A stretch of 64,000 nt of DNA from a virus. Taxonomy: Duplodnaviria > Caudoviricetes. The stretch is from the IMG/VR virus record IMGVR_UViG_3300042154_002208; one strand, written 5' to 3'. The notes beneath the pieces are model-generated. The model was not told the origin of the DNA. It saw only the letters and a list, made by a program, of their open reading frames with translations, and ran no database searches. Shown here piece by piece: positions 3,813-48,997 of this stretch (position 1 is its first letter; each line of letters starts with the position of its first letter). Position numbers and translations under genes: made by a program.

Positions 3813-4117
3813 ACTACAAATATAATGAGGGTGAGTTAATTAAAGAGTTTCAAGAATACATTGATGCAACATATGGACAACATTATTCAATGAATAGATT
3901 CCAGGCATCCGAGTTTATTATTGATAATGGGCATGGTGTAGGATTTACTGCAGGCAATGTAATGAAATACGTCCAAAGATATGGCAAAAAAGCTGGTCGT
4001 AACAGACAAGACTTGTTAAAGGTTTTACACTACGCATTGATGTTGTTATATGTGCATGATCTTGAAACAGGCGAAGGCAATGCTGATAATTTTGAAATAC
4101 GTAAGGTAAATAAATGA
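3800..4117 (+). CDS. DUF3310-like (T7 gp1.7-like nucleotide kinase-related) conserved phage protein
   Basis: YKYNEGE, TYGQHY, GFTAGNVMKYVQRYGKK and DLLKVLHYA motifs recognised from T4-like phages. Confidence 0.65.
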   Translation: MAEIDYKYNEGELIKEFQEYIDATYGQHYSMNRFQASEFIIDNGHGVGFTAGNVMKYVQRYGKKAGRNRQDLLKVLHYALMLLYVHDLETGEGNADNFEIRKVNK

Positions 4118-8370: not shown

Positions 8371-8601
8371 ATGTTTTACGCAAACATGGCTATCGATTCA
8401 ATTCAAGACGCCAAAATCAACTTCCTCAAACAAACAGTCAAGGAAGATTCCCTTCAAAAACCTCTAGTCGATTTTGTAGAAGCACAACGGGTCTTTACAA
8501 AACAAGTTGCTAAGTCTGCTAACGATGTAATGAATATTGCGTCAGAGACTTTTGCTAATTCGATTACTGGTAAAACAAGTAAAAAGGGAGAATCAAAATG
8601 A
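8371..8601 (+). CDS. Small helical protein, possibly phasin-like
   Basis: Strong SD (AGGAG); amphipathic helical pattern. Family assignment is from memory only. Confidence 0.45.
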   Translation: MFYANMAIDSIQDAKINFLKQTVKEDSLQKPLVDFVEAQRVFTKQVAKSANDVMNIASETFANSITGKTSKKGESK

Positions 8602-9122
8602 CATTTGTTCCACAAATATTTGGCCGTGATATGTTCAAAGACTTTGATAAACTATATGTAGGCTTTGACGATCAATTTAGCAAGATGGCCAAGATTCATG
8701 ATGATCTAACAAAGAGCATTCCGAATTATCCACCATACAATATTAAGAAAACTGGCGATACAACTTATGTTATTGAAGTTGCAGTTGCTGGTTTTGCGAG
8801 ACAGGATATTGAAATTGAACTTGCCGATGGCAAAATGATTATTAAAGGCAATGTAAATGGTGCAGAGCAAGAAGATAATTTCTTGTTCAAAGGTATTGCT
8901 AATAGAGCATTTACTCGCACATTTGCTTTAGAAGACCATATTGAAGTTCAAGATGCTGCTATGTTAAATGGTATGCTTAAGATTTTCTTAGAGCGTATTA
9001 TTCCAGAACATAAGAAGCCAAAGAAAATTGAAGTTAAAGATTCTGAAGTAAGCACAAAGCCTACAAAGAAATCTAAGCCTCAATTACTTACAGAAGATCC
9101 TGTAGAAAATAGAAACCTATAA
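8598..9122 (+). CDS. hsp20: Small heat shock protein Hsp20 (IbpA-like)
   Basis: NYPPYNIKK, IEVAVAGF, KGIANRAFTRTFAL and NGMLKIFLER motifs. Confidence 0.95.
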   Translation: MTFVPQIFGRDMFKDFDKLYVGFDDQFSKMAKIHDDLTKSIPNYPPYNIKKTGDTTYVIEVAVAGFARQDIEIELADGKMIIKGNVNGAEQEDNFLFKGIANRAFTRTFALEDHIEVQDAAMLNGMLKIFLERIIPEHKKPKKIEVKDSEVSTKPTKKSKPQLLTEDPVENRNL

Positions 9123-9307
9123 TGAATAATGATCTAAAAGAATTTGAGGGAGTTCATTTCCCTGCAATGAAAGACTTTTGGTCATGGGTTGAAAAAGCCT
9201 TTACTCCTTCATATCAAAAAGAAATTGATATGTATTTGAAAGATTCTGTAGATTATAAAGATCTAGAACATAGAATGCAGGTATTAGCACGTAGAGGATT
9301 ACTATGA
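9122..9307 (+). CDS. DUF3563-like small protein
   Basis: YLKDSVDYKDLEHRM motif resembles the Burkholderiales DUF3563 family. Confidence 0.55.
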   Translation: MNNDLKEFEGVHFPAMKDFWSWVEKAFTPSYQKEIDMYLKDSVDYKDLEHRMQVLARRGLL

Positions 9308-9396
9308 AATTCATTAGAGCTTTTATTAAAATCGTACATGAAGTACGACACCGACTAGCCACTCGTGGAGATAAACTCCCCACAAAGGGTTCGTAA
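9304..9396 (+). CDS. 30-aa hypothetical peptide
   Basis: ATGA-coupled start; ends just before the terminator. Confidence 0.4.
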   Translation: MKFIRAFIKIVHEVRHRLATRGDKLPTKGS

Positions 9397-9400
9397 AATC

Positions 9401-9420
9401 ACTAGGGCTTCGGCCCTAGT
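9401..9420 (+). terminator. Intrinsic terminator-like hairpin
   Basis: ACTAGGGC TTCG GCCCTAGT perfect stem with UUCG loop. Confidence 0.75.
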
Positions 9421-9496
9421 TGTCCAAATGATATTAGAATACTTTGTTATTTTACATAAAGATGTTATAATATATTATTCGTAAACGGAGAATTGA

Positions 9497-9814
9497 ATGA
9501 TTAAAATTTTAAAGCTACAAACCGGTGAAGAATTAGTTGCCGATATGACAATGGAAACCGCAAGTATTAAACTTGTGCAACCATTCATTTTAACAATGTC
9601 GCCTAATCGTGAACCTGGATTTGAAAAAGAAATGACACTGGCATTGTTTCCATATGCCCCATATGTTGTTAAACATACAATTGAAGTTGATGCTTCAAAA
9701 GTTATATGGATTGCAGAATTGCCAAATAGTATGATTGCAGACTACAATCGTGCATTGGAAAATCTAAATGTTACATTGTCTAACATTAAGCAAGACCTTG
9801 ATACTAAAGCATAA
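9497..9814 (+). CDS. Conserved T4-like hypothetical protein (Sm-like fold candidate)
   Basis: IKILKLQTGEELVA N-terminus typical of the gene near hsp20/gp43 in T4-like phages. Confidence 0.65.
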   Translation: MIKILKLQTGEELVADMTMETASIKLVQPFILTMSPNREPGFEKEMTLALFPYAPYVVKHTIEVDASKVIWIAELPNSMIADYNRALENLNVTLSNIKQDLDTKA

Positions 9815-9816
9815 AA

Positions 9817-9933
9817 ATGAAAACATTGCACAACTTTAAAAAACGCACCAAACAGGGCGGCAAAGCAAAAACCTCAAGTATGAATAAGACTCAAAAGAGA
9901 AGTTATAAGGCATACAGAGGCCAGGGCAAATAA
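9817..9933 (+). CDS. 38-aa basic peptide
   Basis: MKTLHNFKKRTKQGG...KRSYKAYRGQGK; below the ORF-track cutoff. Confidence 0.6.
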   Translation: MKTLHNFKKRTKQGGKAKTSSMNKTQKRSYKAYRGQGK

Positions 9934-10113
9934 ATGAGCGGTAAGGGTAGTAAACCTAGACCATATAGTGTTCCTATTGCTACATTTGATAATAATTACG
10001 ATGCTATTTTTCGTAATTATAAAAAAACAGATGAAGAAAAATTTGATGATGCGATTATGAAAAACGAATACTATGAAGATTCTGAGAAGCTAACAGAAAA
10101 AGATTATAAATAA
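9934..10113 (+). CDS. 59-aa conserved phage hypothetical protein
   Basis: MSGKGSKPRPYSV...FDNNYDAIF; abuts the upstream stop. Confidence 0.6.
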   Translation: MSGKGSKPRPYSVPIATFDNNYDAIFRNYKKTDEEKFDDAIMKNEYYEDSEKLTEKDYK

Positions 10114-34624: not shown

Positions 34625-34670
34625 ACACCTTAACTTTCCGTTTATTATAAATAATAATAAAGGAGAGTAT

Positions 34671-35138
34671 ATGATAGATGTACAAGAGTTTATAAAAGAA
34701 TCTCGAGAAGTTCGCAGATCGCATTTAGATTTAACTGAAGAATGTTGTGAACGAGGTGGAAATTCTACAAATCATAAAGGTGTTCTTGCAGAATATTTAG
34801 ATACAACTATACCATCGGGAAGAATTCTTTTATGTCATGCGTGCAATAATGGTAAATGTAGTAATCCTAAACATTTATATTGGGGCACTGATTATGATAA
34901 TATCATAATTGATGGTAAAGAATTTGGTACTCACATTTCTCCCTGGGAAAGACGAGTTGAAAAATATGGGTATGAAAAAGCTTGTGCTATGAATAGTAAA
35001 GTTGGTAATACAAATGGATCTGGCAACAAAGGTAAACCTAAGTCAGACGAACATAAAAGAAATATTGCATTAAATCGAAAAGGTGGGAAACCTAAAGGTT
35101 GGAAAAAGAACAAGGCGCCTGTAACCGAATTGGTATAG
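34671..35138 (+). CDS. HNH/His-Cys-type homing endonuclease with NUMOD3-like motif
   Basis: LCHACNNGKCSNPKHLYWGT..DN and KGKPKSDEHKRNIA motifs; own TATAAATA (34646) and SD AGGAG. Confidence 0.85.
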   Translation: MIDVQEFIKESREVRRSHLDLTEECCERGGNSTNHKGVLAEYLDTTIPSGRILLCHACNNGKCSNPKHLYWGTDYDNIIIDGKEFGTHISPWERRVEKYGYEKACAMNSKVGNTNGSGNKGKPKSDEHKRNIALNRKGGKPKGWKKNKAPVTELV

Positions 35139-35916: not shown

Positions 35917-36312
35917 ATGATTAATATTCTTGTCAACGGCACATTCGATATTGTTCACAGAGGACATATTGAATTACTTAATTATGCTAGAGGTTGTGGT
36001 CAACAACTTATAGTCTGTATTGATTCGGATAGACGAGTTAAAGAATTAAAAGGTGATAGTAGACCTATTAATAATCAAGATGATAGAAAACATCTGTTAC
36101 AAAATTTAAGAGCAGTTAATGCTGTTCATATATTTGATTCAGCTGAAGAATTAGAAATGCTTTGTAAACAGTATTCGCCTATAATGGTTAAGGGTAGTGA
36201 TTATAAAGATAAGCCTATTGTGGGAAGTCAATATTGTAAAGAGATTAGATTTGTGGATTTGGTAAATGGATATTCAACAACAAAAACAATTCAAAATATT
36301 ATTACTCGGTGA
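35917..36312 (+). CDS. D-glycero-beta-D-manno-heptose 1-phosphate adenylyltransferase (RfaE domain II-like)
   Basis: NGTFDIVHRGH, IDSDRRVKELKGDSRPINNQDDR, VKGSDY and GYSTT motifs. Confidence 0.88.
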   Translation: MINILVNGTFDIVHRGHIELLNYARGCGQQLIVCIDSDRRVKELKGDSRPINNQDDRKHLLQNLRAVNAVHIFDSAEELEMLCKQYSPIMVKGSDYKDKPIVGSQYCKEIRFVDLVNGYSTTKTIQNIITR

Positions 36313-37018
36313 TAATTGTATTGATGTTTATCAGTATGGTGCAGTAGATCGTATCAGTCCTGAAGCACCTGTGCCTGTGTTCAAATTTTCTCACGAAGAA
36401 AAACGAGCAGGCATGGCGGGCAATGTTAAGAATAATCTAATTTCACTTGGTGCAGATGTTACATTCCTACACGGAGAAACTTCTACAAAAACTAGATTGG
36501 TTGACCTTAAAAGCAAACAACATATTGTTAGAATTGATAATGATGTTTTATCTGATGCATTTGTTTTTGATACAAGTATTCCAAAATTATATGACGCAAT
36601 AGTGATTTCCGATTATAATAAGGGAACAATTAGTTATGAGATGGTCGAAGAATTAATTGCAGACTTTAAAGGTCCAGTTTTTATTGATACAAAGAAAACG
36701 GATCTTAAAAGATTTGAAGGTGCAATCGTTAAAATTAATAGTTTAGAAAATAGTTTGGCCAAGACTTTACCTACAGAGTTAATTGTAACTATGGGTAGAT
36801 ATGGGGCACAATATAAAGATCAACAATATTCCGCACCGCACACCGAGGTGTTTGATGTTTGCGGTGCTGGAGATACATTTCTTTCAGCGTTGGTTCTTGA
36901 ATTCTTAAAGACAAACAATATGGAAAAGGCAATTGAGATTGCCAACATTGCAGCTAGTATTACAGTAAAGCATATCGGAGTATATGCACCGACATGGGAA
37001 GAAATAAATGAGGCTTGA
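36266..37018 (+). CDS. Heptose 7-phosphate kinase (RfaE domain I-like, PfkB)
   Basis: RISPEAPVPV, GMAGNV, ISDYNKG and VFDVCGAGDTF motifs. Confidence 0.88.
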   Translation: MDIQQQKQFKILLLGDNCIDVYQYGAVDRISPEAPVPVFKFSHEEKRAGMAGNVKNNLISLGADVTFLHGETSTKTRLVDLKSKQHIVRIDNDVLSDAFVFDTSIPKLYDAIVISDYNKGTISYEMVEELIADFKGPVFIDTKKTDLKRFEGAIVKINSLENSLAKTLPTELIVTMGRYGAQYKDQQYSAPHTEVFDVCGAGDTFLSALVLEFLKTNNMEKAIEIANIAASITVKHIGVYAPTWEEINEA

Positions 37019-37364
37019 GGGGTTTGTTAAAAAAGGTTGGGGTCACGAATTAATCTGGGCTACTAACGATAAGTATTGCGGCAAGTTGATGAAGTTCAAC
37101 AAAGGTGCAAAATTTAGTATGCACTTTCATTCTGAAAAAGATGAATCATGGTATGTACTTGACGGGTTATTCTTTGTTAAATGGATTGATACCAAAACAG
37201 CCAAAGAACAAATTAAGTATCTTAAGCAAGGCGATACTTGGCACAATCCCCCATGCTTACCTCATCAATTGGTTTGTCAGGAAGAAGGTACTATCATTGA
37301 AGTTAGTACACCGGATTCGGTAGAAGATAATTATAGAGTTGCACCTGGAGATAGTCAGGCATGA
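37008..37364 (+). CDS. Cupin (sugar isomerase-like)
   Basis: VKKGWGHE, SMHFHSEKDESWYV, PHQL and EVSTPD motifs. Confidence 0.8.
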   Translation: MRLEGFVKKGWGHELIWATNDKYCGKLMKFNKGAKFSMHFHSEKDESWYVLDGLFFVKWIDTKTAKEQIKYLKQGDTWHNPPCLPHQLVCQEEGTIIEVSTPDSVEDNYRVAPGDSQA

Positions 37365-37669
37365 AGTACATTGTAGATATAGATGGAACAATCTGTTCGG
37401 TTGTTCTTAATGATGATAAGAGTGTGAATTATGATAAAACACAACCACATAAAGATAGAATTGAAAAAATTAATAAGTTATTTGATGAAGGACATGAAAT
37501 AACTTATTGGACAGCTAGAGGTTCTGCTTCTGGAGTTGATAGATCAGAATTAACTAAAAAACAGATGACAGAATGGGGAGCAAAATACCATAAGCTAGTA
37601 TTTTATAAACCCGTTTATGATATTTGGATTGATGATAAAGCTGTAAACAGCGAGGTATATTTCAAATGA
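37361..37669 (+). CDS. Small HAD-superfamily phosphatase
   Basis: DIDGTIC, YWTARG and KPVYDIWIDDKA motifs. Confidence 0.8.
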   Translation: MKYIVDIDGTICSVVLNDDKSVNYDKTQPHKDRIEKINKLFDEGHEITYWTARGSASGVDRSELTKKQMTEWGAKYHKLVFYKPVYDIWIDDKAVNSEVYFK

Positions 37670-38445
37670 AAATATTACTAACAGGTCATAGAGGATTTAT
37701 TGGTTCTAGACTATTGACGGCCTTGCGTGATCGAGGTGATGATGTTGAAACGTATGAATTTGACGATGGCGTAAGACCCGGCGTTATGGATTTTGAATGG
37801 GTTATTCATGCTGGTGCCATCAGTTCAACAACCGAAAAAGATATTGATAAAGTACTAAGACAAAATTACGAATTCTCCATGGACTTATACGACGAGTGTA
37901 AAACATTCGGAGTTAATTTACAGTATTCTAGTTCTGCTAGTGTGTATGGATTGAATAAAGAGTTTTGTGAAAATTCTCCGTTGGATCCAAGAACGCCTTA
38001 TGCTTGGTCAAAGTATTTGTTTGAAAGATATGTAAAACAACATCATCATGATAGTCCCATTGTGCAAGGATTTAGATATTTTAATGTATGGGCTTGGGAA
38101 GGTGAAGAACATAAAGGCAATCAGGCAAGCCCATTTGCTCAGTTTAAGAAACAAGCCATAGAAACAGGTAAGATTAAATTATTTGAGAATAGTGAAAATT
38201 ATCGTAGAGATTTTGTTCATGTGAAATCTATTGTGGATTATCATTTAAAGTTTTTAGAATCAAGTAGATCTGGAATCTTTAATATGGGCACAGGTAAAAC
38301 TATGAGTTTTTATGATGTTGCGGATATGGTTGCAGAAGAATATCATGCGGAGATTGAAATTATTCCGATGCCAGAAATTTTAAAGGCAAGTTATCAGGAG
38401 TATACTTGTGCAGATATGCGCAAGACAAATGAAGTAATATTGTAA
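37666..38445 (+). CDS. hldD: ADP-L-glycero-D-manno-heptose 6-epimerase
   Basis: TGHRGFIGS, HAGAISSTTE, YSSSASVYG, YAWSKYLFE, FRYFNV, RDFVHV and YQEYTCAD motifs. Confidence 0.85.
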   Translation: MKILLTGHRGFIGSRLLTALRDRGDDVETYEFDDGVRPGVMDFEWVIHAGAISSTTEKDIDKVLRQNYEFSMDLYDECKTFGVNLQYSSSASVYGLNKEFCENSPLDPRTPYAWSKYLFERYVKQHHHDSPIVQGFRYFNVWAWEGEEHKGNQASPFAQFKKQAIETGKIKLFENSENYRRDFVHVKSIVDYHLKFLESSRSGIFNMGTGKTMSFYDVADMVAEEYHAEIEIIPMPEILKASYQEYTCADMRKTNEVIL

Positions 38446-38530: not shown

Positions 38531-39001
38531 ATGAAATTCGATTTCGTAAAAATTAAAGAGTATATTGATGCTCAAGGTCCAGATACAAAAATTTATATTG
38601 GTTGCGATTCAGAACGTTTCCGTAAAAATGATATGTGGTTTGCCGATTATACTTTGGCAATTGTAGTTCATATTGATGGTAAGCATGGTTGTAAAATTTT
38701 TGGAGAAGTTCAAACCGAAAAAGATTATGACCAGCGTAAAAACAAACCCCGTATGCGTTTGATGAATGAAGTAATCAAAATTGCAAATTTATATCTTGAA
38801 TTGGAAAAACTAATTGATGATAGACCAATTGAAGTTCATTTAGATATTAACCCAGATGAAATGTTTGGCTCTTCTTGCGTTGTAGGTGAAGCCATTGGGT
38901 ATATTAAGGGTATGTGTAATGTGGTTCCTTTTGTCAAACCAAAAGCATTCGCGGCAACATACTGTGCAGATCGTTTAAAAGAAATCGTAAAGGTAGCATA
39001 A
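38531..39001 (+). CDS. RNase H-like YkuK/DUF458 family protein
   Basis: IYIGCDS, RLMNEV, EVHLDIN and VKPKAFAATYCAD motifs. Confidence 0.8.
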   Translation: MKFDFVKIKEYIDAQGPDTKIYIGCDSERFRKNDMWFADYTLAIVVHIDGKHGCKIFGEVQTEKDYDQRKNKPRMRLMNEVIKIANLYLELEKLIDDRPIEVHLDINPDEMFGSSCVVGEAIGYIKGMCNVVPFVKPKAFAATYCADRLKEIVKVA

Positions 39002-39222
39002 TGTCAAATCAAATCACATCAGAAGATGCAGTTAACATGGTAGGTAATCGATATGATCTGGTGCTAATTGCATCAGCTCGCGCCAGAGAATTGCGCAAAG
39101 GATATGCACCAAAAATTGATGCAAAACATCATAAGCCAATTGTAACTGCTTTGAATGAAATTGAGCGGGGTTTAATTGGTAGAGAATATTTGAATAAGGT
39201 CAGGAAGCCACAAAAAGGCTAA
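39001..39222 (+). CDS. rpoZ: RNA polymerase omega subunit homolog
   Basis: ITSEDAVNMVGNRYDLVLIASARAREL and KPIVTALNEIERG motifs. Confidence 0.85.
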   Translation: MSNQITSEDAVNMVGNRYDLVLIASARARELRKGYAPKIDAKHHKPIVTALNEIERGLIGREYLNKVRKPQKG

Positions 39223-40551: not shown

Positions 40552-40613
40552 CTACGAGTTCCGCAACTTTAATTTATATAAATATAAGTATAATTCGTTT
40601 CAATGGACTAAAA

Positions 40614-41963
40614 ATGCAGGCAAGACTTTCATTCAAAGCGTATAGGGCGCTTGTCGAATCTCACGATTTCTCAAATCTAACACCCTATCACCAATATAAA
40701 ACAGAAGATGGACACGATGTGCATGTGCATGTCTTTAGAGACGGTGATCATAAAACAGCAATTTTCCATAACAATACATTAGGTGCAATTACAAAGATTG
40801 TGTCTTTTCCTCACTCTTCTAATCTAAGCAAAGAAGAATTAGTCCATGCAGGAAAAGAAGTAAAGCATGATAATATTATGGAAGCGGCCGCGCCATCATT
40901 AGATGCGGATACCGCAGGCAAAGTAGCTGAAGTTGCTCTGGCAAAAGAGATGATCAACCATAAACACAAGCAAGCAGGCACATTTGGTGCTGCCGAACAT
41001 AAAAAAGAATTAAAGCCATACAACGATGAGATGATTCAATTGTCTAGCGGCAAAGATGCAGATCAAATTGCCATTAGAGAAGCTCACGGCAAAGCAATGG
41101 CAGCAGGAGTTATTAAACATATCGACGAACATCATCCTGGCGCAACAGTTACAGATGTGGGTAGAACTGCTAAACCTGGAGATATTGCTAGATTTACAAA
41201 AGGTGTTCATACTGACGGACAAGAGAATCCATCAGATGTTACTTTAAAATTAAATCACCCCGATGGAGCTGAAACATATATGGGAGTGTCCGCAAAGTCA
41301 ACGGGCAAATCTTCTGGCAATATTACTGCAAAAAATCCAGGTGTTGCGGGACAAGATGAATTTTTATCAAGTGGTCCGGCAACAAGAAAATCTAGAGCAA
41401 ATGAAATTGCTCAAGAAGGTAGAGCAGCAATTCTCAAAAAATATAAATTAGAAGGTCTGCCAGATAAGTCTACTAAAGGCGATTCAAGAAAAGCTAGAGT
41501 TACATCAGTTAATCCTGAAACAGGAAAACCCGAAATTAATGAACTCGGCAAAAAGATGAATGTAGAGTTTAAAAAGAATAATGAAGAAACTGCACGCGAA
41601 TTGCAAATACAATTAGGACACCTTGCATCATTGGGCCCTAAAGGTCACGCACATATTGGAAAATGGTTGCATAGCAATCTAGTATCTTCCGAAGGTATGC
41701 CATGGATCAAGGCAACAGGGCACGGTAAGGAAATGAATAAGGTTCATGCTGTTGTTAAGCCTGGTAGCGATTCTCCGTTAAATGCAGTATTAACAGATAA
41801 GAAGACCAGATATGCGGTTCATCGTTCCACATCTGCAGTAACAGTACACAAAGAAGAAAAAGATGGGACACATATTCCAATCGTTAGAATTGGGGCAAAA
41901 CCCAAATCACACGGGGCATATTCAAGCCAAGTATATAACTTCACACCATCGAGTAATTTCTAA
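40614..41963 (+). CDS. Late protein with PD-(D/E)xK nuclease-like motif
   Basis: TATAAATA at 40577; ENPSDVTLK...MGVSAKS. Confidence 0.55.
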   Translation: MQARLSFKAYRALVESHDFSNLTPYHQYKTEDGHDVHVHVFRDGDHKTAIFHNNTLGAITKIVSFPHSSNLSKEELVHAGKEVKHDNIMEAAAPSLDADTAGKVAEVALAKEMINHKHKQAGTFGAAEHKKELKPYNDEMIQLSSGKDADQIAIREAHGKAMAAGVIKHIDEHHPGATVTDVGRTAKPGDIARFTKGVHTDGQENPSDVTLKLNHPDGAETYMGVSAKSTGKSSGNITAKNPGVAGQDEFLSSGPATRKSRANEIAQEGRAAILKKYKLEGLPDKSTKGDSRKARVTSVNPETGKPEINELGKKMNVEFKKNNEETARELQIQLGHLASLGPKGHAHIGKWLHSNLVSSEGMPWIKATGHGKEMNKVHAVVKPGSDSPLNAVLTDKKTRYAVHRSTSAVTVHKEEKDGTHIPIVRIGAKPKSHGAYSSQVYNFTPSSNF

Positions 41964-43132
41964 TGTTATCATTTGGCACATACTTAGTTGAATCTGCGAA
42001 CGAGGAAAAGTTAACACACCTCGAACACGCAGAAGATCACCCTATTAATGCAGGGGAAGAAGGCTTTAAGCACGTATTCAATACTTTAAACGAAACACAC
42101 AATGCTTTGTTAGGCAAAAGATCAAAGGCATCTTTATCCACAAAGTATGATGGCTCGCCTAGTATTGTGTTTGGCACTCACCCGGAGTTTCCTAGATTCT
42201 TTGTTGCATCCAAATCTGCATTCAACAAGAATCCCAAATTAAATTTTACAGAATCTGATATTGAAAAGAATCATGGTCACGCACCCGGACTTGTTGCCAA
42301 ATTAAAAGCAGCTCTATACCACTTGCCTAAAGTAACTCCCAACGAAGGGGTGTTTCAAGGCGACGTAATGTATAATAAGTCGGATAAAGATGTGTCAGAC
42401 TCTGGCGGGTCATATCATTTTAAGCCTAACACAATTACATACTCTGCTAAAAAGGGCAGTGAAGAAGGGCAAAAGATCAAAGATGCTAAATTTGGTGTGG
42501 CAGTTCATACAGCATATCGTGGAGATACGCTTGAGAACATGAAGGCTGAGTATAACACCGACACTTCTAAATTTAATTCACATCCAGATGTGCACGTAGT
42601 TGATACTAAGTTTGATCCTAAGACTGCACATTATACCCCTGATGCTCAACAAGAATATCATTCTCATATGGCAAAGGCAGTTGAAGCTCACAATGATTTA
42701 CCCAATTACGATCATCTCGAAGGTCACGACGTATCATTAAAGACATATATTAATTCAACTGTGAGAGACACCTCAATACCATCGGTAGAGGGTTATAAAA
42801 AACATCTACAAGGTTCTCTGCAGAAAGACATTGACAAAGTTAAAACCGATAAAGCCAAACAAAACAAAGCTGCGGATATGAATGAAAAGTTAGATCATAT
42901 TGATACCAATAAAGATTCATTTAAAAAGACTTTGGATATTCATAAACATCTGCAAAATGCAAAAAATGTTTTGGTTAATACCATGTCAAATGCAGATTAT
43001 AAATTTCATCATAGTATTGATGGTAAAAAAGTTAAACCCGAAGGTCATGTTGCAGTATTAAACAACAGACCCACAAAACTAGTAGATAGAGCAGAATTTA
43101 GTGCAGCTAACTTTGCAGCGAGACCAAGATGA
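41963..43132 (+). CDS. Conserved T4-like protein (DUF6267-like) with KxDG motif
   Basis: LTHLEHAED, TKYDGSPSIVFG, FFVASKSAFNKNPK, FQGDVMY, PEGHV and KLVDRAEFS motifs. Confidence 0.7.
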   Translation: MLSFGTYLVESANEEKLTHLEHAEDHPINAGEEGFKHVFNTLNETHNALLGKRSKASLSTKYDGSPSIVFGTHPEFPRFFVASKSAFNKNPKLNFTESDIEKNHGHAPGLVAKLKAALYHLPKVTPNEGVFQGDVMYNKSDKDVSDSGGSYHFKPNTITYSAKKGSEEGQKIKDAKFGVAVHTAYRGDTLENMKAEYNTDTSKFNSHPDVHVVDTKFDPKTAHYTPDAQQEYHSHMAKAVEAHNDLPNYDHLEGHDVSLKTYINSTVRDTSIPSVEGYKKHLQGSLQKDIDKVKTDKAKQNKAADMNEKLDHIDTNKDSFKKTLDIHKHLQNAKNVLVNTMSNADYKFHHSIDGKKVKPEGHVAVLNNRPTKLVDRAEFSAANFAARPR

Positions 43133-43563
43133 AAACATTTAAACAAGTACGAGAAGAATTGCTTTATGAAAATAAAGATGCTTGCTATTATAAAGTCAAA
43201 AGCCGCTATAGCGTTTGGCCTTCAGCATATGCTAGCGGAGCGTTAGTTAAATGCCGCAAAGTTGGTGCGGCAAATTGGGGAAATTCTAGTAAAAATGAAG
43301 ATACAATCGCAGATACTACTGTACAAGTAGATGAAAATTTAAACAAATGGTTTAAAGACAAATGGGTTCGTTTTGGACCTGATGGTAAAATACGAGGAGA
43401 TTGTGCGAGAGAAGATGATACTGAAGGTAAACCAAAATGTTTACCGCAAAGTCAAGCGCATAGTTTGGGAAAAGAAGGGCGAGCCAAAGCCGCCGCAAGA
43501 AAACGCAGAGAAGATCCTAATGCAGAACGCAGAGGCCCTGCAATTAATGTAGCTACAAAGTAA
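43129..43563 (+). CDS. Putative head-packaged protein
   Basis: MKTFKQVREE N-terminus; WPSAYASGALVKCRK and PKCLP modules. Confidence 0.7.
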   Translation: MKTFKQVREELLYENKDACYYKVKSRYSVWPSAYASGALVKCRKVGAANWGNSSKNEDTIADTTVQVDENLNKWFKDKWVRFGPDGKIRGDCAREDDTEGKPKCLPQSQAHSLGKEGRAKAAARKRREDPNAERRGPAINVATK

Positions 43564-43569
43564 ATTAAA

Positions 43570-44259
43570 ATGAAAACATTTAAACAACTAATAGAAGAAA
43601 TTCAATCCATTGACGAAGGCAATCGTCCCGGGTTATGGGATAACATTCACGCAAAACGCAAACGAATCAAATCTGGATCCGGAGAACGTATGCGTGCACC
43701 TGGAAGTGATGGCGCGCCATCCAAACAAGACTTTAAAAATGCGTCAGAAACCGTGGCAGAAGCCAAAAAAGACAAAGCCAAGGGTGCCGACGGTAAAGCA
43801 TGCTGGGATGGATATCGTTACAGTGGTACAACAAACGGCAAAGATGATTGTGTTAAGGTTGAAGAAGCGGAAGAACTGTTTGACTTAATCGAAGATGTGA
43901 TCGAAGATATTGCAAAAGAAAACAATGTTGATTCAGATGTGATTTGGGAAGACCTTAAAGATATCTCAGATGAGGATCTATTTGAAGTCGCAGCTTGGCA
44001 ACGCAAAGAGGGAAAGAATCCTGAAGGCGGATTAAACGCTAAGGGTGTTGCTTCATATCGTAGAGAAAATCCCGGTTCAAAACTACAAATGGCTGTAACT
44101 ACTAAACCATCTAAATTAAAGCCCGGAAGTAAAGCAGCTAATAGAAGAAAATCTTTTTGTGCTCGTATGGGCGGAATGAAGAAGCGATTAACATCTGCAG
44201 AGACTGCTAGAGATCCTGATTCAAGAATTAACAAAGCACTAAGAAAGTGGAATTGTTAA
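43570..44259 (+). CDS. Putative head-packaged modular basic protein
   Basis: MKTFKQLIEE N-terminus; GLWDNIHAKRKR, CWDGY and RRKSFCARM...RINKALRKWNC modules. Confidence 0.75.
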   Translation: MKTFKQLIEEIQSIDEGNRPGLWDNIHAKRKRIKSGSGERMRAPGSDGAPSKQDFKNASETVAEAKKDKAKGADGKACWDGYRYSGTTNGKDDCVKVEEAEELFDLIEDVIEDIAKENNVDSDVIWEDLKDISDEDLFEVAAWQRKEGKNPEGGLNAKGVASYRRENPGSKLQMAVTTKPSKLKPGSKAANRRKSFCARMGGMKKRLTSAETARDPDSRINKALRKWNC

Positions 44260-44480
44260 TGCTTCTTATCACTGAGCCTCATAGCATATAATAACATCAT
44301 GTCAATAGTTTGTCTATAAATTTTGGTTAACTTTGGATAAAAAGGAGGCAAGATGAGCTGGTTCAAACACAAACCTAAAAAAAATCCCCCTAAACCAAAA
44401 CACCCCTATCCTATACCTCCGATAAACCAAACATCCTTATTTTATAAATAATAAGTATCAACTATATTCTAATGGACCAC

Positions 44481-46418
44481 ATGGACTTTAAACAATTCAT
44501 CACAGAAGCGCCTGAAAAAACAGCAGCTTTTGCCTTTGGGCGATTCAATCCGCCTACCGTTGGACACGAAAAACTCATTAATAAAGTCAAATCCGTTGCC
44601 GATGAGCACAATGCTACTGCACATATTGTAGCATCCCATTCTGAAGGTACATCAAAAGATCCTGTTCCTGCCAAGGCCAAGGTAGGATATCTAAAACACG
44701 TAGCACCTGAAGGCACTAAGGTATCAGGTGCTTCTAAAGACTCTCCAACTTTTTTACACGCTGCAGCAAAATTGCACGGCCAAGGCTATAAGCATTTGGT
44801 TATGGTGGCTGGTTCGGATCGTGTGGATGAGTATCACAAAACATTAAACAAGTATAACAATGTCGCCAGCAAGCACGGCCACTACAATTTTAAATCAATT
44901 AAAGTAGTTTCAGCTGGGCAAAGAGACCCTGATGCAGAAGGCGTAGAGGGAATGTCTGGAACTAAGATCCGTGCTCATGCCAGAGCAGGTGAAATGAAAC
45001 AATTTAAATCTGGTCTTCCTAAAGCATTACATCCTCATGCAGAGGAAATTGCCAACCATATCAAAGCGGTTAAAGAAGATTACGAAAATCCAAATAGATT
45101 TGATTGGGGAACACCTGCGGGCACAGATCATGCCATCGGTATGACTCCTGAAATGAAGATTGTTTGTCCTGTTGGTGAAGTATTCAGTAAGGATAAAGGA
45201 ATGTGCGTGCCAGTAAGAGAGTCTTACATAGCAGGCGAGATTTTTAAATTAAACGATTTAGTTGAATCAACTAACGGGACACGGGGCAAGATCGTATATA
45301 GAGGCTCATCATACGTTACCATACAACAAGAAAACGGCGATACATCTAAACATTGGCTAAAAGACATACAAGAAATATTTGGCGAAAAAGCAGGCACAGG
45401 ACTACACGTTGATCTACGCCCCAAATTATCTAAGACTTCAAAGTTACAAAACTTCAAGAAATTTTCTGACGGACCTCAGGAAAAAGAAAAAATCAAATAC
45501 AAAGGCGCATATAAGCCAGCATATGTTGAGGGAAAACAAATCCCTGCATTGTTCCTATCCAAAGAACAATTGTCTGAAATGAGCAACAGTAGAATGGAAG
45601 TTACATTCGATGGTTATACCTCATCATTTATTCATACGTGCCCTGGTGCATCGGCTCAATTAAAAGAATTAATTGCCAGAGTTGAACTTCCAAAGAAATA
45701 TGTTTTGCAGGCAATTATGGCAACAGATCAATATCTTGAAATTGAAAAAGAAGCAAAGGCAAAAGGCTTTGCGAATGATCAAATGATTCATGACTTTAAT
45801 ATGAAGTTTGCTATTGCACATGACACAATGAATATACTAGGTGTTGAAGATAAGGATTTACTGTATATGCAAACACATTTGAAAACCATGTCCGACCTTA
45901 ATATGCATAGAGATGGCACATATGCAAATGATCCAGGCTCAACAGTAACAGTTGTGGGCGCCGGCAGTGTAGAAGAAGATGTTGCGTCTGCAGATTTTGA
46001 ATATATTCCAAGCAAAGACCCAATAACCGGTAAAGTAACATACGTTAAGCATCGTGCTAGAATGATAGATACTTCTACCAAAGAACGACCAAAGACTTTA
46101 TCTTCAATTAGACAGAGTCAAAAAGATAAAGATGAGGAAAACAAAATGAAACTCAAAGAAGCAAGTGAGAGAGATGTCAACTTTACAGACAATAAAGATG
46201 TATTTCATGGCATAGATAAGCCCATTGCTGGTCAAGGTCACCCTGACAAACCAGTTGGTATGGTATCATTCAAATCGTTTATTCAAGATCCACAACATCA
46301 AGCATTTACAAAATATCATGATGCTGATAGACAAGAAGTTCATGCAGCACAGGCAAAGATTGCAGGGCAAAAGTCATCCGCATATAAAATGATGAAGAAA
46401 GCTAGCCAGGCAGAATAA
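44481..46418 (+). CDS. Cytidylyltransferase-like (HxGH) multidomain protein
   Basis: FGRFNPPTVGHEKL, VAGSDRV and SAGQRDPDAEGVEGMSGTKIR motifs; TATAAATA at 44443; MDFKQFITE start. Confidence 0.8.
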   Translation: MDFKQFITEAPEKTAAFAFGRFNPPTVGHEKLINKVKSVADEHNATAHIVASHSEGTSKDPVPAKAKVGYLKHVAPEGTKVSGASKDSPTFLHAAAKLHGQGYKHLVMVAGSDRVDEYHKTLNKYNNVASKHGHYNFKSIKVVSAGQRDPDAEGVEGMSGTKIRAHARAGEMKQFKSGLPKALHPHAEEIANHIKAVKEDYENPNRFDWGTPAGTDHAIGMTPEMKIVCPVGEVFSKDKGMCVPVRESYIAGEIFKLNDLVESTNGTRGKIVYRGSSYVTIQQENGDTSKHWLKDIQEIFGEKAGTGLHVDLRPKLSKTSKLQNFKKFSDGPQEKEKIKYKGAYKPAYVEGKQIPALFLSKEQLSEMSNSRMEVTFDGYTSSFIHTCPGASAQLKELIARVELPKKYVLQAIMATDQYLEIEKEAKAKGFANDQMIHDFNMKFAIAHDTMNILGVEDKDLLYMQTHLKTMSDLNMHRDGTYANDPGSTVTVVGAGSVEEDVASADFEYIPSKDPITGKVTYVKHRARMIDTSTKERPKTLSSIRQSQKDKDEENKMKLKEASERDVNFTDNKDVFHGIDKPIAGQGHPDKPVGMVSFKSFIQDPQHQAFTKYHDADRQEVHAAQAKIAGQKSSAYKMMKKASQAE

Positions 46419-46419
46419 T

Positions 46420-46854
46420 ATGGAATTGTTGCAATTATCTTTACAGAAGACATTGGCAGATGCGTTTACAATGTACTTCAAGGCTCATACATTTCATTGG
46501 AATGTAGAGGGTCCTGATTTTAAACAGTATCACGATTTGTTTGGTGGTATCTATGAAGAAGTATATGGATCTATAGATTTGCTTGCTGAGCATATTCGAC
46601 AAATTGACGCATATACACCTACATCATTAAAACAACTCTCAGGGCTTACAGTTGTAACTGAAGATGAAACTGTAATGCCAGCGTTACAAATGATTAAAAG
46701 TTTAATGGATGCAAACAGCATGGTACTTGCTTCATTAATGCTTTCTTATAGAGATGCGGACAATGCATCCGAATTAGGTTTGGCAAATTTCTTGCAAGAT
46801 AGAATTGCCGCTCATCAGAAACATGCTTGGATGCTAAAAGCAACACTAAAATGA
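46420..46854 (+). CDS. dps: Dps/ferritin-like protein
   Basis: KAHTFHWNVEGPDFKQYHDLF, DLLAEHIRQI and HQKHAWML motifs. Confidence 0.92.
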   Translation: MELLQLSLQKTLADAFTMYFKAHTFHWNVEGPDFKQYHDLFGGIYEEVYGSIDLLAEHIRQIDAYTPTSLKQLSGLTVVTEDETVMPALQMIKSLMDANSMVLASLMLSYRDADNASELGLANFLQDRIAAHQKHAWMLKATLK

Positions 46855-47303
46855 TTACTTTTCAAGAATTTTTAAGTACCGATATAACGGAAGAAGAATT
46901 AGATTCTATTGTGGAAGAACTACAATGGGAAGACATTGAGCATTTATATGCAGACGACGAATTTGAAAATGAATTAGATGAAGCTCTTTCTGCAACAGCT
47001 AGAATGCAAAAATCGCAAAAATTTAAATCTAGAAAAACAGCAGTTGGACAAGCTCGCAGATTAAAATTAAGACGAGCATCATCTACAGATGTTATTAATC
47101 GTAGATCAAAAGTTGCTGCTAGACAAATGGTAATTAGAAAACTTTTAAAAGGCAGAGATAAAAAACAATTATCCGCTGCTGAAAAAGATAGAATTGAGAA
47201 ACAAGCATCTAATATTCTAGCAGGACAAAAAGGACTCGTTGTAAGAATGATTCCTAAAGTTAGAAGTTTAGAGCGATCAAGATTAGCTGGCAAAAAGAAA
47301 TGA
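46851..47303 (+). CDS. Putative head-packaged protein (acidic N-half, basic C-half)
   Basis: MITFQEFLST start; LDEA cleavage-like site before the basic domain. Confidence 0.7.
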   Translation: MITFQEFLSTDITEEELDSIVEELQWEDIEHLYADDEFENELDEALSATARMQKSQKFKSRKTAVGQARRLKLRRASSTDVINRRSKVAARQMVIRKLLKGRDKKQLSAAEKDRIEKQASNILAGQKGLVVRMIPKVRSLERSRLAGKKK

Positions 47304-47350
47304 TTTCGGTTAGCCATAAATAATAAATAGAATTCATTAAAGGACCTAGA

Positions 47351-48409
47351 ATGACAAGAATTACAAATGAATTGTTTGAATCAATCAGACAAATTACAAA
47401 TCCAACTCCAGTTCAAGAAGTAAAAATGGATGCGGTTGGAAAAGAAGACGCGGACATTAACAACGATAAAATTGCCGCAACTGTCAAAGAAGGCAGAGTA
47501 GATGCTGCTCACTTCTGCGCAACACACGTTGAACACGATCTATATGGTGAAGGCGAGTGCATTTCAGAAGCACATGCTGATCCAGATGAGAATGGAAATA
47601 TTGCTTGGTATACAGTACAATTTGCTGACGGTGTTCGCAAAGTACAAACCGAAGCAGTTAAAGTTAAAAAAGGCAAGATGCATGAGCATGCTGAAGCAGA
47701 TGCAGAATCAATTGAAGAAAAGAAACTACATCCTAATCAACAAGTATTAGATGTGCATGAGCCAGAGAAAGATAAATTAACTGCTAAAGATTTTGAAATG
47801 CTACGTAAGGGCAAAAAACAAAAGGCAGTCAAAGAAGGAACTATGGGCAATGCTGGAACTGTTACCATGAAACAAGTTAACAAAAGCAGCGCATCGCCTA
47901 CAGTTAAGAAAGCAATTAAAAAAGCTGCACCTGATATTAAATCTTATGCTGACAGAGCAGCTGCTCTAACAGCTGCAGGTATTAAGAGAGAATCAGTTGA
48001 AGAAGGCATATCAGAAACTATTGTTAAGCATAATGACTTTACAATCGAAATTACTGATAATCCTACATATGGTGACTTCTTAAGAGCAGTTCAATCTATT
48101 GTTAGAACAGATGAAGAATCAATGCAACAAGAAATTGTTGCTATTGCTGAAGAAGCATATGCAGAAAATTATGAAGATGTGATTATTGAATCATTCACTA
48201 GAATGGAAATTGAAGATAAGTTAGCTGCTCACCGCAAGGCGGGCAACACAGTATCAAACGATAAGTTTAGTACTAAAAACGGAGAACCTTATGCTGAGTA
48301 TGTTGTGACTGATAAAGAAGGTGGACGTAAGAAATATATTCACCATGGATCGGTTCGTCGCATGGAATCAATGCCAGGTAAAACAGCTAAATCTTCCAAA
48401 GAAGAATAA
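47351..48409 (+). CDS. Late acidic protein, prohead-core-like
   Basis: CATAAATA at 47315; many (I/V/L)xE sites; DAVGKEDADINND and KLHPNQ..LD modules. Confidence 0.6.
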   Translation: MTRITNELFESIRQITNPTPVQEVKMDAVGKEDADINNDKIAATVKEGRVDAAHFCATHVEHDLYGEGECISEAHADPDENGNIAWYTVQFADGVRKVQTEAVKVKKGKMHEHAEADAESIEEKKLHPNQQVLDVHEPEKDKLTAKDFEMLRKGKKQKAVKEGTMGNAGTVTMKQVNKSSASPTVKKAIKKAAPDIKSYADRAAALTAAGIKRESVEEGISETIVKHNDFTIEITDNPTYGDFLRAVQSIVRTDEESMQQEIVAIAEEAYAENYEDVIIESFTRMEIEDKLAAHRKAGNTVSNDKFSTKNGEPYAEYVVTDKEGGRKKYIHHGSVRRMESMPGKTAKSSKEE

Positions 48410-48451
48410 GCACCATAGTGTTTCAATAAATATAAAAACAGGGAGACAAAA

Positions 48452-48997
48452 ATGTCAGCATGGGGAAAATTAGATAGAAGAGAAGTTGGCGCAACAGCAC
48501 GCGCTAATTTAGGTAGCACAACAGTTGTTACAAGCACTGCTGCAGTTACTGCTGCGAATGGCTTTCAAGCCGGGTATTCATTGGTAATTGCAAACGTGGA
48601 CTATAGAATTGAAACTATTAGTACATCCAATACAATTATTCTTGATACCGCATATCGTGGCGCAAATGTAGCAGCTGCCAATATTGCTATTCAAGAAGAT
48701 CCAAAATGGATTACAACAAATGGGCGTGGCACTACAATGGCTTCTGGTCGTGGTCCTAACACAACCAATAAGGCCAACGTATACGGTGTTGACCGTACTG
48801 AAGTTGGTGTTGCTGGTAATAAAGCAAACGGGTTTAGCCAACCAGGTTGGGTTTCATATAAAACATATACTACCACTCAGGGCGCAACAAGAAACAAAGT
48901 TGAAGTATTAGTAGCAAGTTCAAAGAACTTTAATGCTAATGCCACAGGTGTATTGCAAGGTGATGCTAACGATAACACTATATTGCCAAATAGCTAA
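48452..48997 (+). CDS. Putative virion structural protein
   Basis: MSAWGKLD, VYGVD, PGWVSY and RNKVEVLVA motifs; heads the fibre cluster. Confidence 0.65.
   Translation: MSAWGKLDRREVGATARANLGSTTVVTSTAAVTAANGFQAGYSLVIANVDYRIETISTSNTIILDTAYRGANVAAANIAIQEDPKWITTNGRGTTMASGRGPNTTNKANVYGVDRTEVGVAGNKANGFSQPGWVSYKTYTTTQGATRNKVEVLVASSKNFNANATGVLQGDANDNTILPNS

What the first reader, a model, noticed from the sequence alone, without database searches (positions are those of the whole stretch)
40614..48409. Cluster of late genes with T4 internal-protein-like capsid-targeting N-termini: an injected payload
Seen: N-termini MLSFGTYLVE (41963), MKTFKQVREE (43129), MKTFKQLIEE (43570), MDFKQFITE (44481), MITFQEFLST (46851) and RLSFKAYRALVE (40614), with late promoters at 40577, 44443 and 47315 and many (I/L/V)xE sites. 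Established: T4 internal proteins carry an approximately 10-residue MKT(Y/F)xEF..E capsid-targeting sequence removed by gp21, and IPI is an injected anti-restriction protein. Inference: at least six proteins, including probable enzymes, are packaged, processed into modules and ejected with the DNA, making this a likely anti-defence reservoir.
Basis: partly seen in the sequence, partly recalled or inferred. Interest (0 to 1): 0.76.

Follow-up and report, generated by a model that had tools for sequence, protein, structure and literature searches.

The report
T4-type head-targeting leaders on phage enzymes
A freshwater T4-like phage puts the ten-residue tag that phage T4 uses to load proteins into its head onto six neighbouring late proteins, among them a restriction-enzyme-like nuclease, an RNA-ligase-like enzyme and a nucleotidyltransferase, so it probably carries ready-made enzymes in the virion.

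Summary
Six adjacent late genes (A 40614, B 41963, C 43129, D 43570, E 44481, G 46851) start with a leader M-x-x-F-x-x-[FY]-[LI]-x-E.

A matrix trained only on leaders of distant B homologues ranks E, D, C and B as the top 4 of 87 window genes. The same matrix ranks T4 ipII, ipIII and ipI as the top 3 of 31 T4 genes. The most conserved leader positions (4, 7, 8, 10) are those shown in T4 to drive targeting and cleavage.

Near-complete relatives all encode a gp21-type protease. In cyanophage S-CREM2, 5 of 6 leader-bearing genes examined are virion proteins by published mass spectrometry (Fisher p = 0.007).

By fold, the cargo includes:
- A, a HinP1I/MspI-like nuclease with an invariant SD-X17-SxK motif;
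- B (DUF6267), an Rnl2-like ligase-superfamily enzyme with a KxDG motif;
- E, a HIGH-motif nucleotidyltransferase;
- C, D and G, small basic modular proteins.

Packaging is well supported but indirect. Ejection and an anti-defence role are untested. The scan found the same theme before on other DNA (for example e1-5320532 and e1-5342168). I found no published link between this tag and this phage group.

The parts
40577..40584 (+). T4-type late promoter TATAAATA, 36 nt upstream of gene A; heads the coupled operon A-B-C-D
40614..41963 (+). Gene A, 449 aa. Leader MQARLSFKAYRALVE (nt 40614-40658). Small beta domain at residues 20-86. HinP1I/MspI-like PD-(D/E)xK nuclease fold at residues ~92-449, with invariant E106, S207-D208, S226-x-K228. 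Mature pI 9.1.
41963..43132 (+). Gene B, 389 aa, DUF6267. Leader MLSFGTYLVE (nt 41963-41992; E10 invariant in 28 homologues; residues 1-13 disordered in the model). Ligase-superfamily nucleotidyltransferase fold with invariant K61-x-D63-G64, Q132-G-D134, E360-G361, K372. Mature pI 8.3.
43129..43563 (+). Gene C, 144 aa. Leader MKTFKQVREE. DUF5872-like module plus a basic C-terminal module that is fused to other cargo in relatives. Mature pI 9.5.
43570..44259 (+). Gene D, 229 aa. Leader MKTFKQLIEE. Basic module (GLWDNIHAKRKR...). Acidic linker from aa 101 (nt 43870) with LIE, VIE, IWE and LFE sites. Conserved L-x-E at aa 137-139 (nt 43978-43986). Then DUF6321 (aa 148-227).
44354..44452 (+). 32-codon ORF (MSWFKHKPKKNPPKPKHPYP...) with an AAGGAGG ribosome site; its end overlaps the next late promoter. 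Status unknown.
   Evidence: read from the sequence
44443..44450 (+). Late promoter TATAAATA, 28 nt upstream of the first ATG of E; heads the operon E-F-G
44481..46418 (+). Gene E, 645 aa (648 from the ATG at 44472). Leader MDFKQFITE (nine residues). HIGH-motif (TVGH) nucleotidyltransferase at residues ~12-200. Further modules that occur separately or in other fusions in relatives. Internal leader-like MVSFKSFIQD at aa 594 (nt 46260-46289), with Asp in place of the terminal Glu.
46420..46854 (+). Gene F, 144 aa. Dps/ferritin-like, acidic (pI 5.2), no leader in the window or in homologues. A conserved member of the block, but probably not cargo by this route.
46851..47303 (+). Gene G, 150 aa. 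Leader MITFQEFLSTDITE, of the long T4 IPI type (T4: MKTFKEFTSTTTPVSTITE). Mature pI 10.2. In relatives this module lies downstream of an E-like module in one frame; in one of them (L012) an internal leader LISFSSFLKEE precedes it.
47315..47330 (+). CATAAATA and AATAAATA (NATAAATA variants, not the exact T4 octamer), 35 and 28 nt upstream of H
47351..48409 (+). Gene H, 352 aa, acidic (pI 5.7). MTRITNELFE is only weakly leader-like (score 2.7, p 0.016). (I/L/V)xE sites marginally enriched. Not counted as cargo; possibly a cleaved core-type protein.
48452..48997 (+). Gene I, 181 aa. Related to the virion structural protein S-SZBM1_136, which was detected by mass spectrometry. AATAAATA lies at 48425-48432 upstream. 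Marks the start of the structural and fibre genes.

Best explanation
The block 40.6-47.3 kb is a set of late operons encoding head cargo.

Six basic proteins (A, B, C, D, E, G; mature pI 8.3-10.2) each begin with a T4-type capsid targeting sequence. It has an aromatic or hydrophobic residue at positions 4 and 7, then (L/I/V)-x-Glu. By analogy with T4 internal proteins, the leader would bind the scaffolding core during prohead assembly. The gp21-type prohead protease would then cut after the Glu, and the mature proteins would stay in the DNA-filled head.

The cargo is mostly enzymatic:
- a HinP1I/MspI-fold nuclease (A);
- an Rnl2-like ligase-superfamily enzyme (B, DUF6267);
- a multi-module HIGH-motif nucleotidyltransferase (E);
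- three small, basic, probably DNA-binding modular proteins (C, D, G). D is likely cut again at a conserved L-x-E before its DUF6321 module.

Shown here: the motif, its significance, its conservation, its identity with the T4 motif, the late-promoter motifs, the folds, the protease in relatives, and the match between leader and virion detection in related cyanophages.

Inferred: packaging and cleavage in this phage.

Speculative: ejection with the DNA, and what the enzymes do in the cell.
For: (1) The motif is real and clustered.

(2) It is conserved while the sequence varies, so selection acts on the peptide. In 29 distinct B-family leaders the information content peaks at positions 4 (F/L), 7 (Y/F) and 8 (L/I); Glu10 was the criterion for choosing the 29 but is invariant in the 28-sequence alignment. 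T4 experiments place targeting at positions 4 and 7 and processing at 8 and 10 (PMC9026906).

(3) The matrix trained on this lineage ranks T4 ipII, ipIII and ipI as 1-3 of 31 genes.

(4) The same leader occurs on homologues of A (14 of 34 full-length relatives), D and E, and in the syntenic clusters of Melnitz-2 and C48C1.

(5) NATAAATA lies 26-36 nt upstream of A, E, H and I, and A-B-C-D and E-F-G are translationally coupled.

(6) A Peptidase_S77 (gp21) gene is present in 4 of 4 near-complete relatives. Their major capsid proteins carry L-(S/T)-E followed by A/V/T near residue 50, and their proteases carry (I/V)-x-E near residue 16.

(7) Virion mass spectrometry of relatives. In S-CREM2, gp6, gp13, gp14, gp15 and gp154 carry leaders and all five are virion proteins; 5 of 6 leader genes against 8 of 37 others, Fisher p = 0.0066. 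In S-SZBM1 the E homologue (leader MRFRQFIIE) was detected, while the leaderless B homologue was not.

(8) The leaders are disordered in the models (residues 1-13 of B, 1-8 of A).

(9) All six proteins are basic, against a median pI of 6.2 for the other window genes.

(10) B has fewer (I/L/V)xE sites than expected (2 against 3.7) and A and E are not enriched (6 against 5.0; 11 against 7.2, p 0.09), consistent with surviving the protease intact.
Against: There are no data on this phage's virions. Its own protease and scaffold genes are outside the window, and no whole genome is held.

A's leader is atypical: three extra residues at the N-terminus and two extra before the Glu, scoring only 6.3.

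C has V-R-E-E rather than (L/I)-x-E.

The S-CREM2 regions were chosen because they hold virion-detected non-structural proteins. The authors themselves caution that abundant late proteins may co-purify with virions.

Leader-bearing S-SZBM1 gp191 and gp192 and S-CREM2 gp175 were not reported in virions. Conversely, several virion proteins lack a leader.

Ejection into the host is known for T4 internal proteins but is not shown for any protein of this lineage.
Confidence: 0.7

Rival explanations
1. The proteins are targeted to the prohead but are not delivered effectors. They would act inside the capsid (DNA condensation, charge neutralisation, core or scaffold function) or be degraded there like gp22, and the enzyme folds would be irrelevant or inactive.
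For: C, D and G are small, very basic and modular, like the DNA-associated T4 internal proteins. D and H carry many protease-type sites. Nothing here shows ejection.
Against: The catalytic-type residues of A (E106, D208, S226, K228) and of B (K61, D63, G64, E360, K372) are invariant across divergent homologues, which argues for active enzymes. A, B and E are not enriched in cleavage sites. In T4, internal proteins do leave with the DNA (PMC3012670).
Confidence: 0.2
2. The shared N-terminus is not a packaging tag. It would be a propeptide that keeps late enzymes (for example the nuclease) inactive, a localisation or degradation signal in the cell, or an mRNA-level translation element of late genes.
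For: The leaders sit on late genes only. AT-rich, Lys-rich second codons are common in AT-rich phages. A nuclease would plausibly need a safety catch.
Against: Codons vary while the physico-chemical pattern at positions 4, 7, 8 and 10 is kept. The motif also occurs inside fusion proteins at module boundaries. It equals the experimentally defined T4 tag. It predicts virion detection in S-CREM2. A zymogen role is compatible with packaging rather than an alternative to it.
Confidence: 0.07
3. Chance or compositional resemblance: MK.F... starts are simply frequent in an AT-rich genome.
For: A loose regular expression gives scattered hits in every genome tested. TATAAATA as such is not over-represented in the window (13 found, 10.5 expected).
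Against: The top four of 87 genes are adjacent, with 0.13 expected at that threshold. Strict hits in C48C1 and Melnitz-2 fall in the syntenic cluster only. There is also the T4 cross-validation and the invariant Glu10.
Confidence: 0.02

Closest known systems
Phage T4 internal proteins IPI, IPII and IPIII with their capsid targeting sequence (Mullaney and Black 1996, as summarised in PMC9026906 and PMC3012670)
   Same: A 10-19-residue N-terminal leader with key residues at positions 4 and 7 and (L/I)-x-E at its end. Compare T4 MKTYQEFIAE and MKTFKEFTSTTTPVSTITE with this window's MKTFKQLIEE and MITFQEFLSTDITE. Also shared: late genes, basic mature proteins, and a gp21-type protease in the lineage.
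   Different: The mature parts are unrelated to the T4 internal proteins (best BLAST E 0.04). Three of the six are 42-70 kDa enzymes rather than small inhibitors. The genes form one block next to replication and fibre genes. The phage belongs to the Kyanoviridae-like branch, not the Straboviridae.
Virion-associated enzymes of T4-like cyanophages (S-CREM2: SAM hydrolase, APH-like kinase, cytidylyltransferase; S-SZBM1: cytidylyltransferase)
   Same: E is a homologue of S-SZBM1_140 (30% identity over about 300 aa). S-CREM2 gp154 is likewise annotated as a cytidylyltransferase and carries the leader, but its homology to E was not tested. These virion-detected enzymes carry the same leader.
   Different: The published papers report detection without a loading mechanism. 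The window adds a nuclease and a ligase-like enzyme to the cargo list.
Monomeric type II restriction endonucleases HinP1I, MspI and HhaI
   Same: Residues ~92-449 of A match HinP1I (Foldseek E 7.8e-4, probability 1.00; VIA Z 7.8 over 214 residues) and MspI (E 6.4e-3; Z 7.5 over 207 residues), well above all other chains. A has an invariant SD-X17-SAK, comparable to HhaI's SD-X11-EAK (PMC7026639).
   Different: There is no sequence-level match and no adjacent methyltransferase. A has an extra N-terminal beta domain and a leader, and Ser stands in place of the second acidic or amide residue. Activity and specificity are unknown.
ATP-dependent RNA ligases of the Rnl2/Rnl5/REL1 type (T4 Rnl2, Naegleria nick-sealing RNA ligase, T. 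brucei REL1)
   Same: The best structural matches of B are 5cot (Z 9.0), 1xdn (Z 8.4) and 2hvq (Z 8.1), followed by tRNA ligases, T4 Rnl1 and DNA ligases. B has an invariant KxDG and candidates for motifs III, IV and V.
   Different: The Z scores are moderate. Foldseek E-values are only 0.03-0.5. No Pfam ligase family matches; the only hit is DUF6267. The region after the nucleotidyltransferase core is a long helical insertion. The substrate is unknown.

Membership tests
T4-type capsid-targeting-sequence (CTS) cargo proteins | N-terminal leader of about 10-19 residues with hydrophobic or aromatic residues at positions 4 and 7 | tested here: met
   B, C, D and G have F4 with Y/V/L/F at position 7. 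E has the same pattern shifted by one residue. A has it after three extra residues.
T4-type capsid-targeting-sequence (CTS) cargo proteins | Prohead-protease site (L/I)-x-E at the end of the leader | tested here: met
   LVE (A, B), LIE/IEE (D), ITE (E, G). C has VRE/REE, a weaker fit. Glu10 is invariant in 28 B homologues.
T4-type capsid-targeting-sequence (CTS) cargo proteins | gp21-type prohead protease (Peptidase_S77) encoded by the same phage | not testable with these tools
   No whole genome is held, and the head genes lie outside the window. The protease is present in 4 of 4 near-complete relatives.
T4-type capsid-targeting-sequence (CTS) cargo proteins | Late expression | tested here: inconclusive
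   Late-promoter motifs sit at the right distance. No RNA data were available.
T4-type capsid-targeting-sequence (CTS) cargo proteins | Protein present in mature heads with the leader removed | not testable with these tools
   Only by proxy: leader-bearing homologues and analogues are detected in S-CREM2 and S-SZBM1 virions. N-terminal processing was not reported.
T4-type capsid-targeting-sequence (CTS) cargo proteins | Mature part homologous to T4 IPI, IPII or IPIII | tested here: not met
   There are no significant BLAST alignments outside the leader. So these proteins are functional analogues that carry the same tag, not members of the T4 internal-protein families.
Covalent nucleotidyltransferase (ligase/capping) superfamily, for B | Motif I KxDG with the catalytic lysine, plus motifs III, IV and V in order | tested here: met
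   K61-Y-D63-G64, Q132-G-D134, E360-G361-x-V363 and K372 are invariant in 28 sequences. The assignment of motifs III to V is by position and pattern.
Covalent nucleotidyltransferase (ligase/capping) superfamily, for B | Nucleotidyltransferase fold | tested here: met
   The model has pLDDT 90.6. Among the highest-scoring VIA matches that span most of the model, all are RNA or DNA ligases (Z 9.0-5.5), and the Foldseek top seven are DNA ligases, though weakly.
PD-(D/E)xK type II restriction endonucleases of the HinP1I/MspI group, for A | Fold and catalytic motif | tested here: met
   The model has pLDDT 86.9. HinP1I and MspI are the top matches in two independent aligners. E106, S207-D208 and S226-x-K228 are invariant.
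PD-(D/E)xK type II restriction endonucleases of the HinP1I/MspI group, for A | Part of a restriction-modification pair (adjacent cognate methyltransferase) | tested here: not met
   The neighbours are an HNH/endonuclease VII-like gene upstream and B downstream. No methyltransferase is in the block. A is therefore a nuclease of this fold, not an R-M system.
HIGH-motif (class-I-like) nucleotidyltransferases, for E | Pfam CTP_transf_like above the curated cut-off, with the (T/H)xGH motif | tested here: met
   23.6-25.5 bits against a cut-off of 21; motif FGRFNPPTVGH. The NMNAT-specific models lie far below their cut-offs, so the substrate is open.

The most novel reading that the evidence does not exclude
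The phage ships a pre-made enzymatic first-strike kit in its head: a restriction-enzyme-fold nuclease, an RNA-ligase-like enzyme and a nucleotidyltransferase. These would act before any phage gene is expressed, for example by cutting host or competitor DNA, resealing RNA such as tRNA cut by host anticodon nucleases (the phage also carries 21 tRNA genes), or making a nucleotide cofactor. The ten-residue leader would be a general, exchangeable cargo tag across the Kyanoviridae-like phages, reused inside fusion proteins as a cut-and-release joint between modules.
Probability: 0.3. Interest if true: 0.8.

Novelty: new member of a known kind. Interest (0 to 1): 0.58.

Why it matters
T4-like phages of this branch (cyanophages, pelagiphages and freshwater relatives) are among the most abundant viruses in water.

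Published virion proteomes repeatedly report "non-structural" enzymes in particles without explaining how they get there. A ten-residue sequence rule would explain this. It is validated here against T4 and against two published proteomes. It would allow cargo to be predicted from sequence alone, including from metagenomes.

It also points to testable delivered enzymes: a nuclease, a ligase-like enzyme and a nucleotidyltransferase, plus SAM hydrolase and a kinase in relatives. These may decide the first minutes of infection. Finally, it offers a natural tag for loading proteins into the heads of non-coli phages.

Tried and rejected
- **Whole genome:** not held, so this phage's own protease, scaffold and full leader inventory could not be examined.
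- **Close isolates:** megablast against isolated phages found none.
- **Sequence searches against solved structures:** single sequences and profiles of A, B and E gave nothing meaningful. Only the structure comparisons were informative.
- **Foldseek for B:** weak on its own.
- **Loose regular expression** (M.{1,3}[FYL]..[FYLIVW]..E): not specific. It was replaced by a cross-validated matrix.
- **(I/L/V)xE enrichment as a general property of the cluster:** rejected, except for D.
- **H as a seventh leader protein:** rejected (score 2.7, p 0.016, acidic). F (Dps-like) has no leader in any homologue.
- **Separate small gene matching E's C-terminal tail in relatives:** none found.
- **Literature:** no paper in the searchable library links the capsid targeting sequence to cyanophage-type phages. 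A search for 'cytitidyltransferase' found nothing. The HinP1I structure paper (PMC1074309) is not held, so the HinP1I and MspI catalytic motifs I recall (SD-X18-QxK, TD-X17-NxK) are unverified memory.
- **Sequencing runs:** no RNA holder is listed. The DNA holders are lake-water metagenomes.
- **Complex prediction:** not attempted. The leader is shorter than the tool's minimum chain length, and the phage's own scaffold is unknown.

Full report
**Context.** The window is part of a T4-like myovirus. It holds the gp43-type DNA polymerase (20878-23385), sliding clamp, clamp loader, UvsX, gp41 helicase and long fibre genes. The nearest isolated phages by protein similarity are Kyanoviridae: phage C48C1, Methylophilales phage Melnitz, and Synechococcus and Prochlorococcus myoviruses, all at about 30% identity. 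Near-identical DNA occurs in many lake-water metagenomes, and IMG/VR holds contigs up to 98% identical. No whole genome is held.

**The observation.** Exact TATAAATA lies at 40577 and 44443. The third site is CATAAATA/AATAAATA, and a fourth, AATAAATA at 48425, precedes gene I. All are intergenic and lie 26-36 nt before an ATG. The gene ends overlap or nearly abut: A/B share one base, B/C and F/G overlap as ATGA, and C-D and E-F are separated by 6 and 1 nt. The block therefore reads as operons A-B-C-D and E-F-G, followed by H and then I.

**Is it more than chance?**
- T4's own leaders, read from NC_000866, are MKTYQEFIAE (ipII and ipIII) and MKTFKEFTSTTTPVSTITE (ipI).
- A strict pattern applied to every Met-start of at least 50 aa in six frames gives five hits in 64 kb. 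Four of them are B, C, D and E.
- To avoid circularity I collected 80 related loci and took the 29 distinct ten-residue leaders of B homologues that are at most 90% identical to the window's B. I built a position matrix from these and scored all genes.
- In the window the top four of 87 genes are E, D, C and B. A is sixth, and G scores 12.5 at its ATG.
- The same matrix ranks T4 ipII, ipIII and ipI first to third of 31 genes in T4's 62-76 kb region.
- Information content across the 29 leaders peaks at positions 4, 7 and 8; Glu10 was the criterion for choosing the 29 but is invariant in a 28-sequence alignment. T4 genetics places targeting at positions 4 and 7 and processing at 8 and 10 (PMC9026906).
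- In Melnitz-2 and C48C1 the strict hits fall only in the syntenic cluster.

**Is the machinery there?** All four near-complete relatives encode a Peptidase_S77 (gp21-type) protease. Their major capsid proteins have L-(S/T)-E followed by A/V/T near residue 50. The proteases themselves have (I/V)-x-E near residue 16, as in T4.

**Does the leader predict packaging?**
- In S-CREM2 I scored 43 annotated genes in two regions. The genes with strong leaders are gp6 (SAM hydrolase, MKDFDSFLEE), gp13, gp14 (APH-like kinase), gp15 and gp154 (cytidylyltransferase, MKNFSSFLTE). All five are on the published virion list. Only the 55-aa gp175 is not. This gives 5 of 6 against 8 of 37, Fisher p = 0.0066.
- In S-SZBM1 the E homologue gp140 (MRFRQFIIE) and the I homologue gp136 were detected. 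The B homologue gp141 lacks a leader there and was not detected.
- Caveats: I chose the S-CREM2 regions because they contain virion-detected enzymes. The authors note possible co-purification. S-SZBM1 gp191 and gp192 have perfect leaders but were not reported.

**What is the cargo?**
- *A.* It has no family by sequence. An exhaustive HMMER search found 44 relatives. Of the 34 full-length ones, 14 carry a scoring leader. E106, D208, G224, S226 and K228 are invariant, and N205 and S207 nearly so. The model (pLDDT 86.9) matches HinP1I and MspI first in both Foldseek (E 7.8e-4 and 6.4e-3) and VIA-align (Z 7.8 and 7.5, 214 and 207 residues aligned). Other PD-(D/E)xK nucleases score at or below Z 5.3. 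Its SD-X17-SAK compares with HhaI's SD-X11-EAK (PMC7026639).
- *B (DUF6267).* Its model (pLDDT 90.6, leader disordered) best matches nick-sealing RNA ligases and T4 Rnl2 (Z 9.0-8.1), followed by tRNA and DNA ligases. KxDG and candidates for motifs III, IV and V are invariant.
- *E.* It begins with a HIGH-motif nucleotidyltransferase of unknown substrate. It continues with modules that are separate genes or differently fused in relatives.
- *C, D and G.* These are small and basic, with mature pI 8.9-10.2.
- *F.* Dps-like, it is a conserved neighbour but acidic and leaderless.

**Processing into modules.**
- Only D is enriched in (I/L/V)xE sites. These lie in a conserved acidic linker.
- The last site, L-x-E at aa 137-139, is conserved and sits directly before the DUF6321 module. 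In the alignment this is exactly where stand-alone DUF6321 genes end their own leader (MKTLKQFLDE/AAVDG..., MIGFKEFITE/RGADS...).
- In L012 the G module is fused behind an E-type module with an internal LISFSSFLKEE between them.
- E carries an internal MVSFKSFIQD at residue 594. In T4, Asp at position 10 allows targeting but blocks cleavage.
- Together these support leaders serving as joints in fusion proteins, but only in silico.

**Limits.** Nothing here shows that this phage's particles contain these proteins, that the leaders are cut, that the proteins leave with the DNA, or that they counter defence. The anti-defence reading is a hypothesis. It is made somewhat more attractive by the ligase-like enzyme sitting alongside 21 tRNA genes, and by SAM hydrolase as leader-bearing cargo in S-CREM2.

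**Prior art.**
- The tag, its cleavage, and injected IPI are established for T4. The T4 review already suggests that the tag may be a general way for T4-like phages to load proteins.
- I found no paper applying the tag to the cyanophage-type branch.
- The scan itself has reported the same theme on other genomes, including one with a nuclease and an RNA-ligase-like cargo (e1-5320532). My results were obtained independently and agree with those notes.

Noticed in passing
window 30040-33143: A block of 21 tRNA genes on the + strand, covering 19 amino acids (Phe and Gly lack one; two each for Ile, Arg and Ser). This is unusually complete for a phage of this size.
   Followed up: partly
window 34671-35138: A 155-aa protein with an HNH-like Cys/His motif (CHACNNGKCSNPKHLYWG). 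It starts MIDVQEFIKE, very close to T4's MKTYQEFIAE, and lies 24 nt after a TATAAATA at 34646. It scores only 3.7 (p 0.009) with the lineage matrix and has no Pfam hit.
   Followed up: partly
window 35917-38445 and 657-4989: Nucleotide-sugar genes: a small cytidylyltransferase-like gene and a PfkB kinase (a split RfaE/HldE-like pair, suggesting ADP-heptose synthesis), three NAD-dependent epimerase/dehydratase genes, and a glycosyltransferase-like gene. The target of the sugar (host surface, virion or DNA) is unknown.
   Followed up: partly
window 39001-39222: A 73-aa homologue of the RNA polymerase omega subunit (Pfam RNA_pol_Rpb6, E 1.7e-15), encoded by the phage next to an RNase H-like gene (38531-39001).
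   Followed up: no
window 44354-44452: A 32-codon, Pro/Lys-rich ORF with a strong Shine-Dalgarno sequence between D and E. The late promoter of E lies inside its 3' end.
   Followed up: no
L002 (phage C48C1, OQ984149) locus 8601-10031: The annotated start of the 'cytidyltransferase' (MNPPTIGH...) cuts off the first beta strand. The open frame continues upstream and contains a leader-like IKNFSQYLLEE before any ATG. The true start is therefore probably an upstream non-ATG codon, and the protein is probably leader-bearing.
   Followed up: partly
PHROG profiles phrog_455 and phrog_727: phrog_455 (764 positions) matches B with its first half and E with its second half. phrog_727 matches C and D with adjacent parts. 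In some phages these neighbouring cargo genes therefore exist as single fused proteins, which hints at functional coupling of the ligase-like enzyme and the nucleotidyltransferase.
   Followed up: no
G002 contig 67868-68842 (-), beside the gp21 gene: A 324-aa protein next to the prohead protease starts MSKDFFSFRNHITE (leader score 9.9). The tag is thus also present on a gene within the head-morphogenesis cluster of a relative.
   Followed up: no
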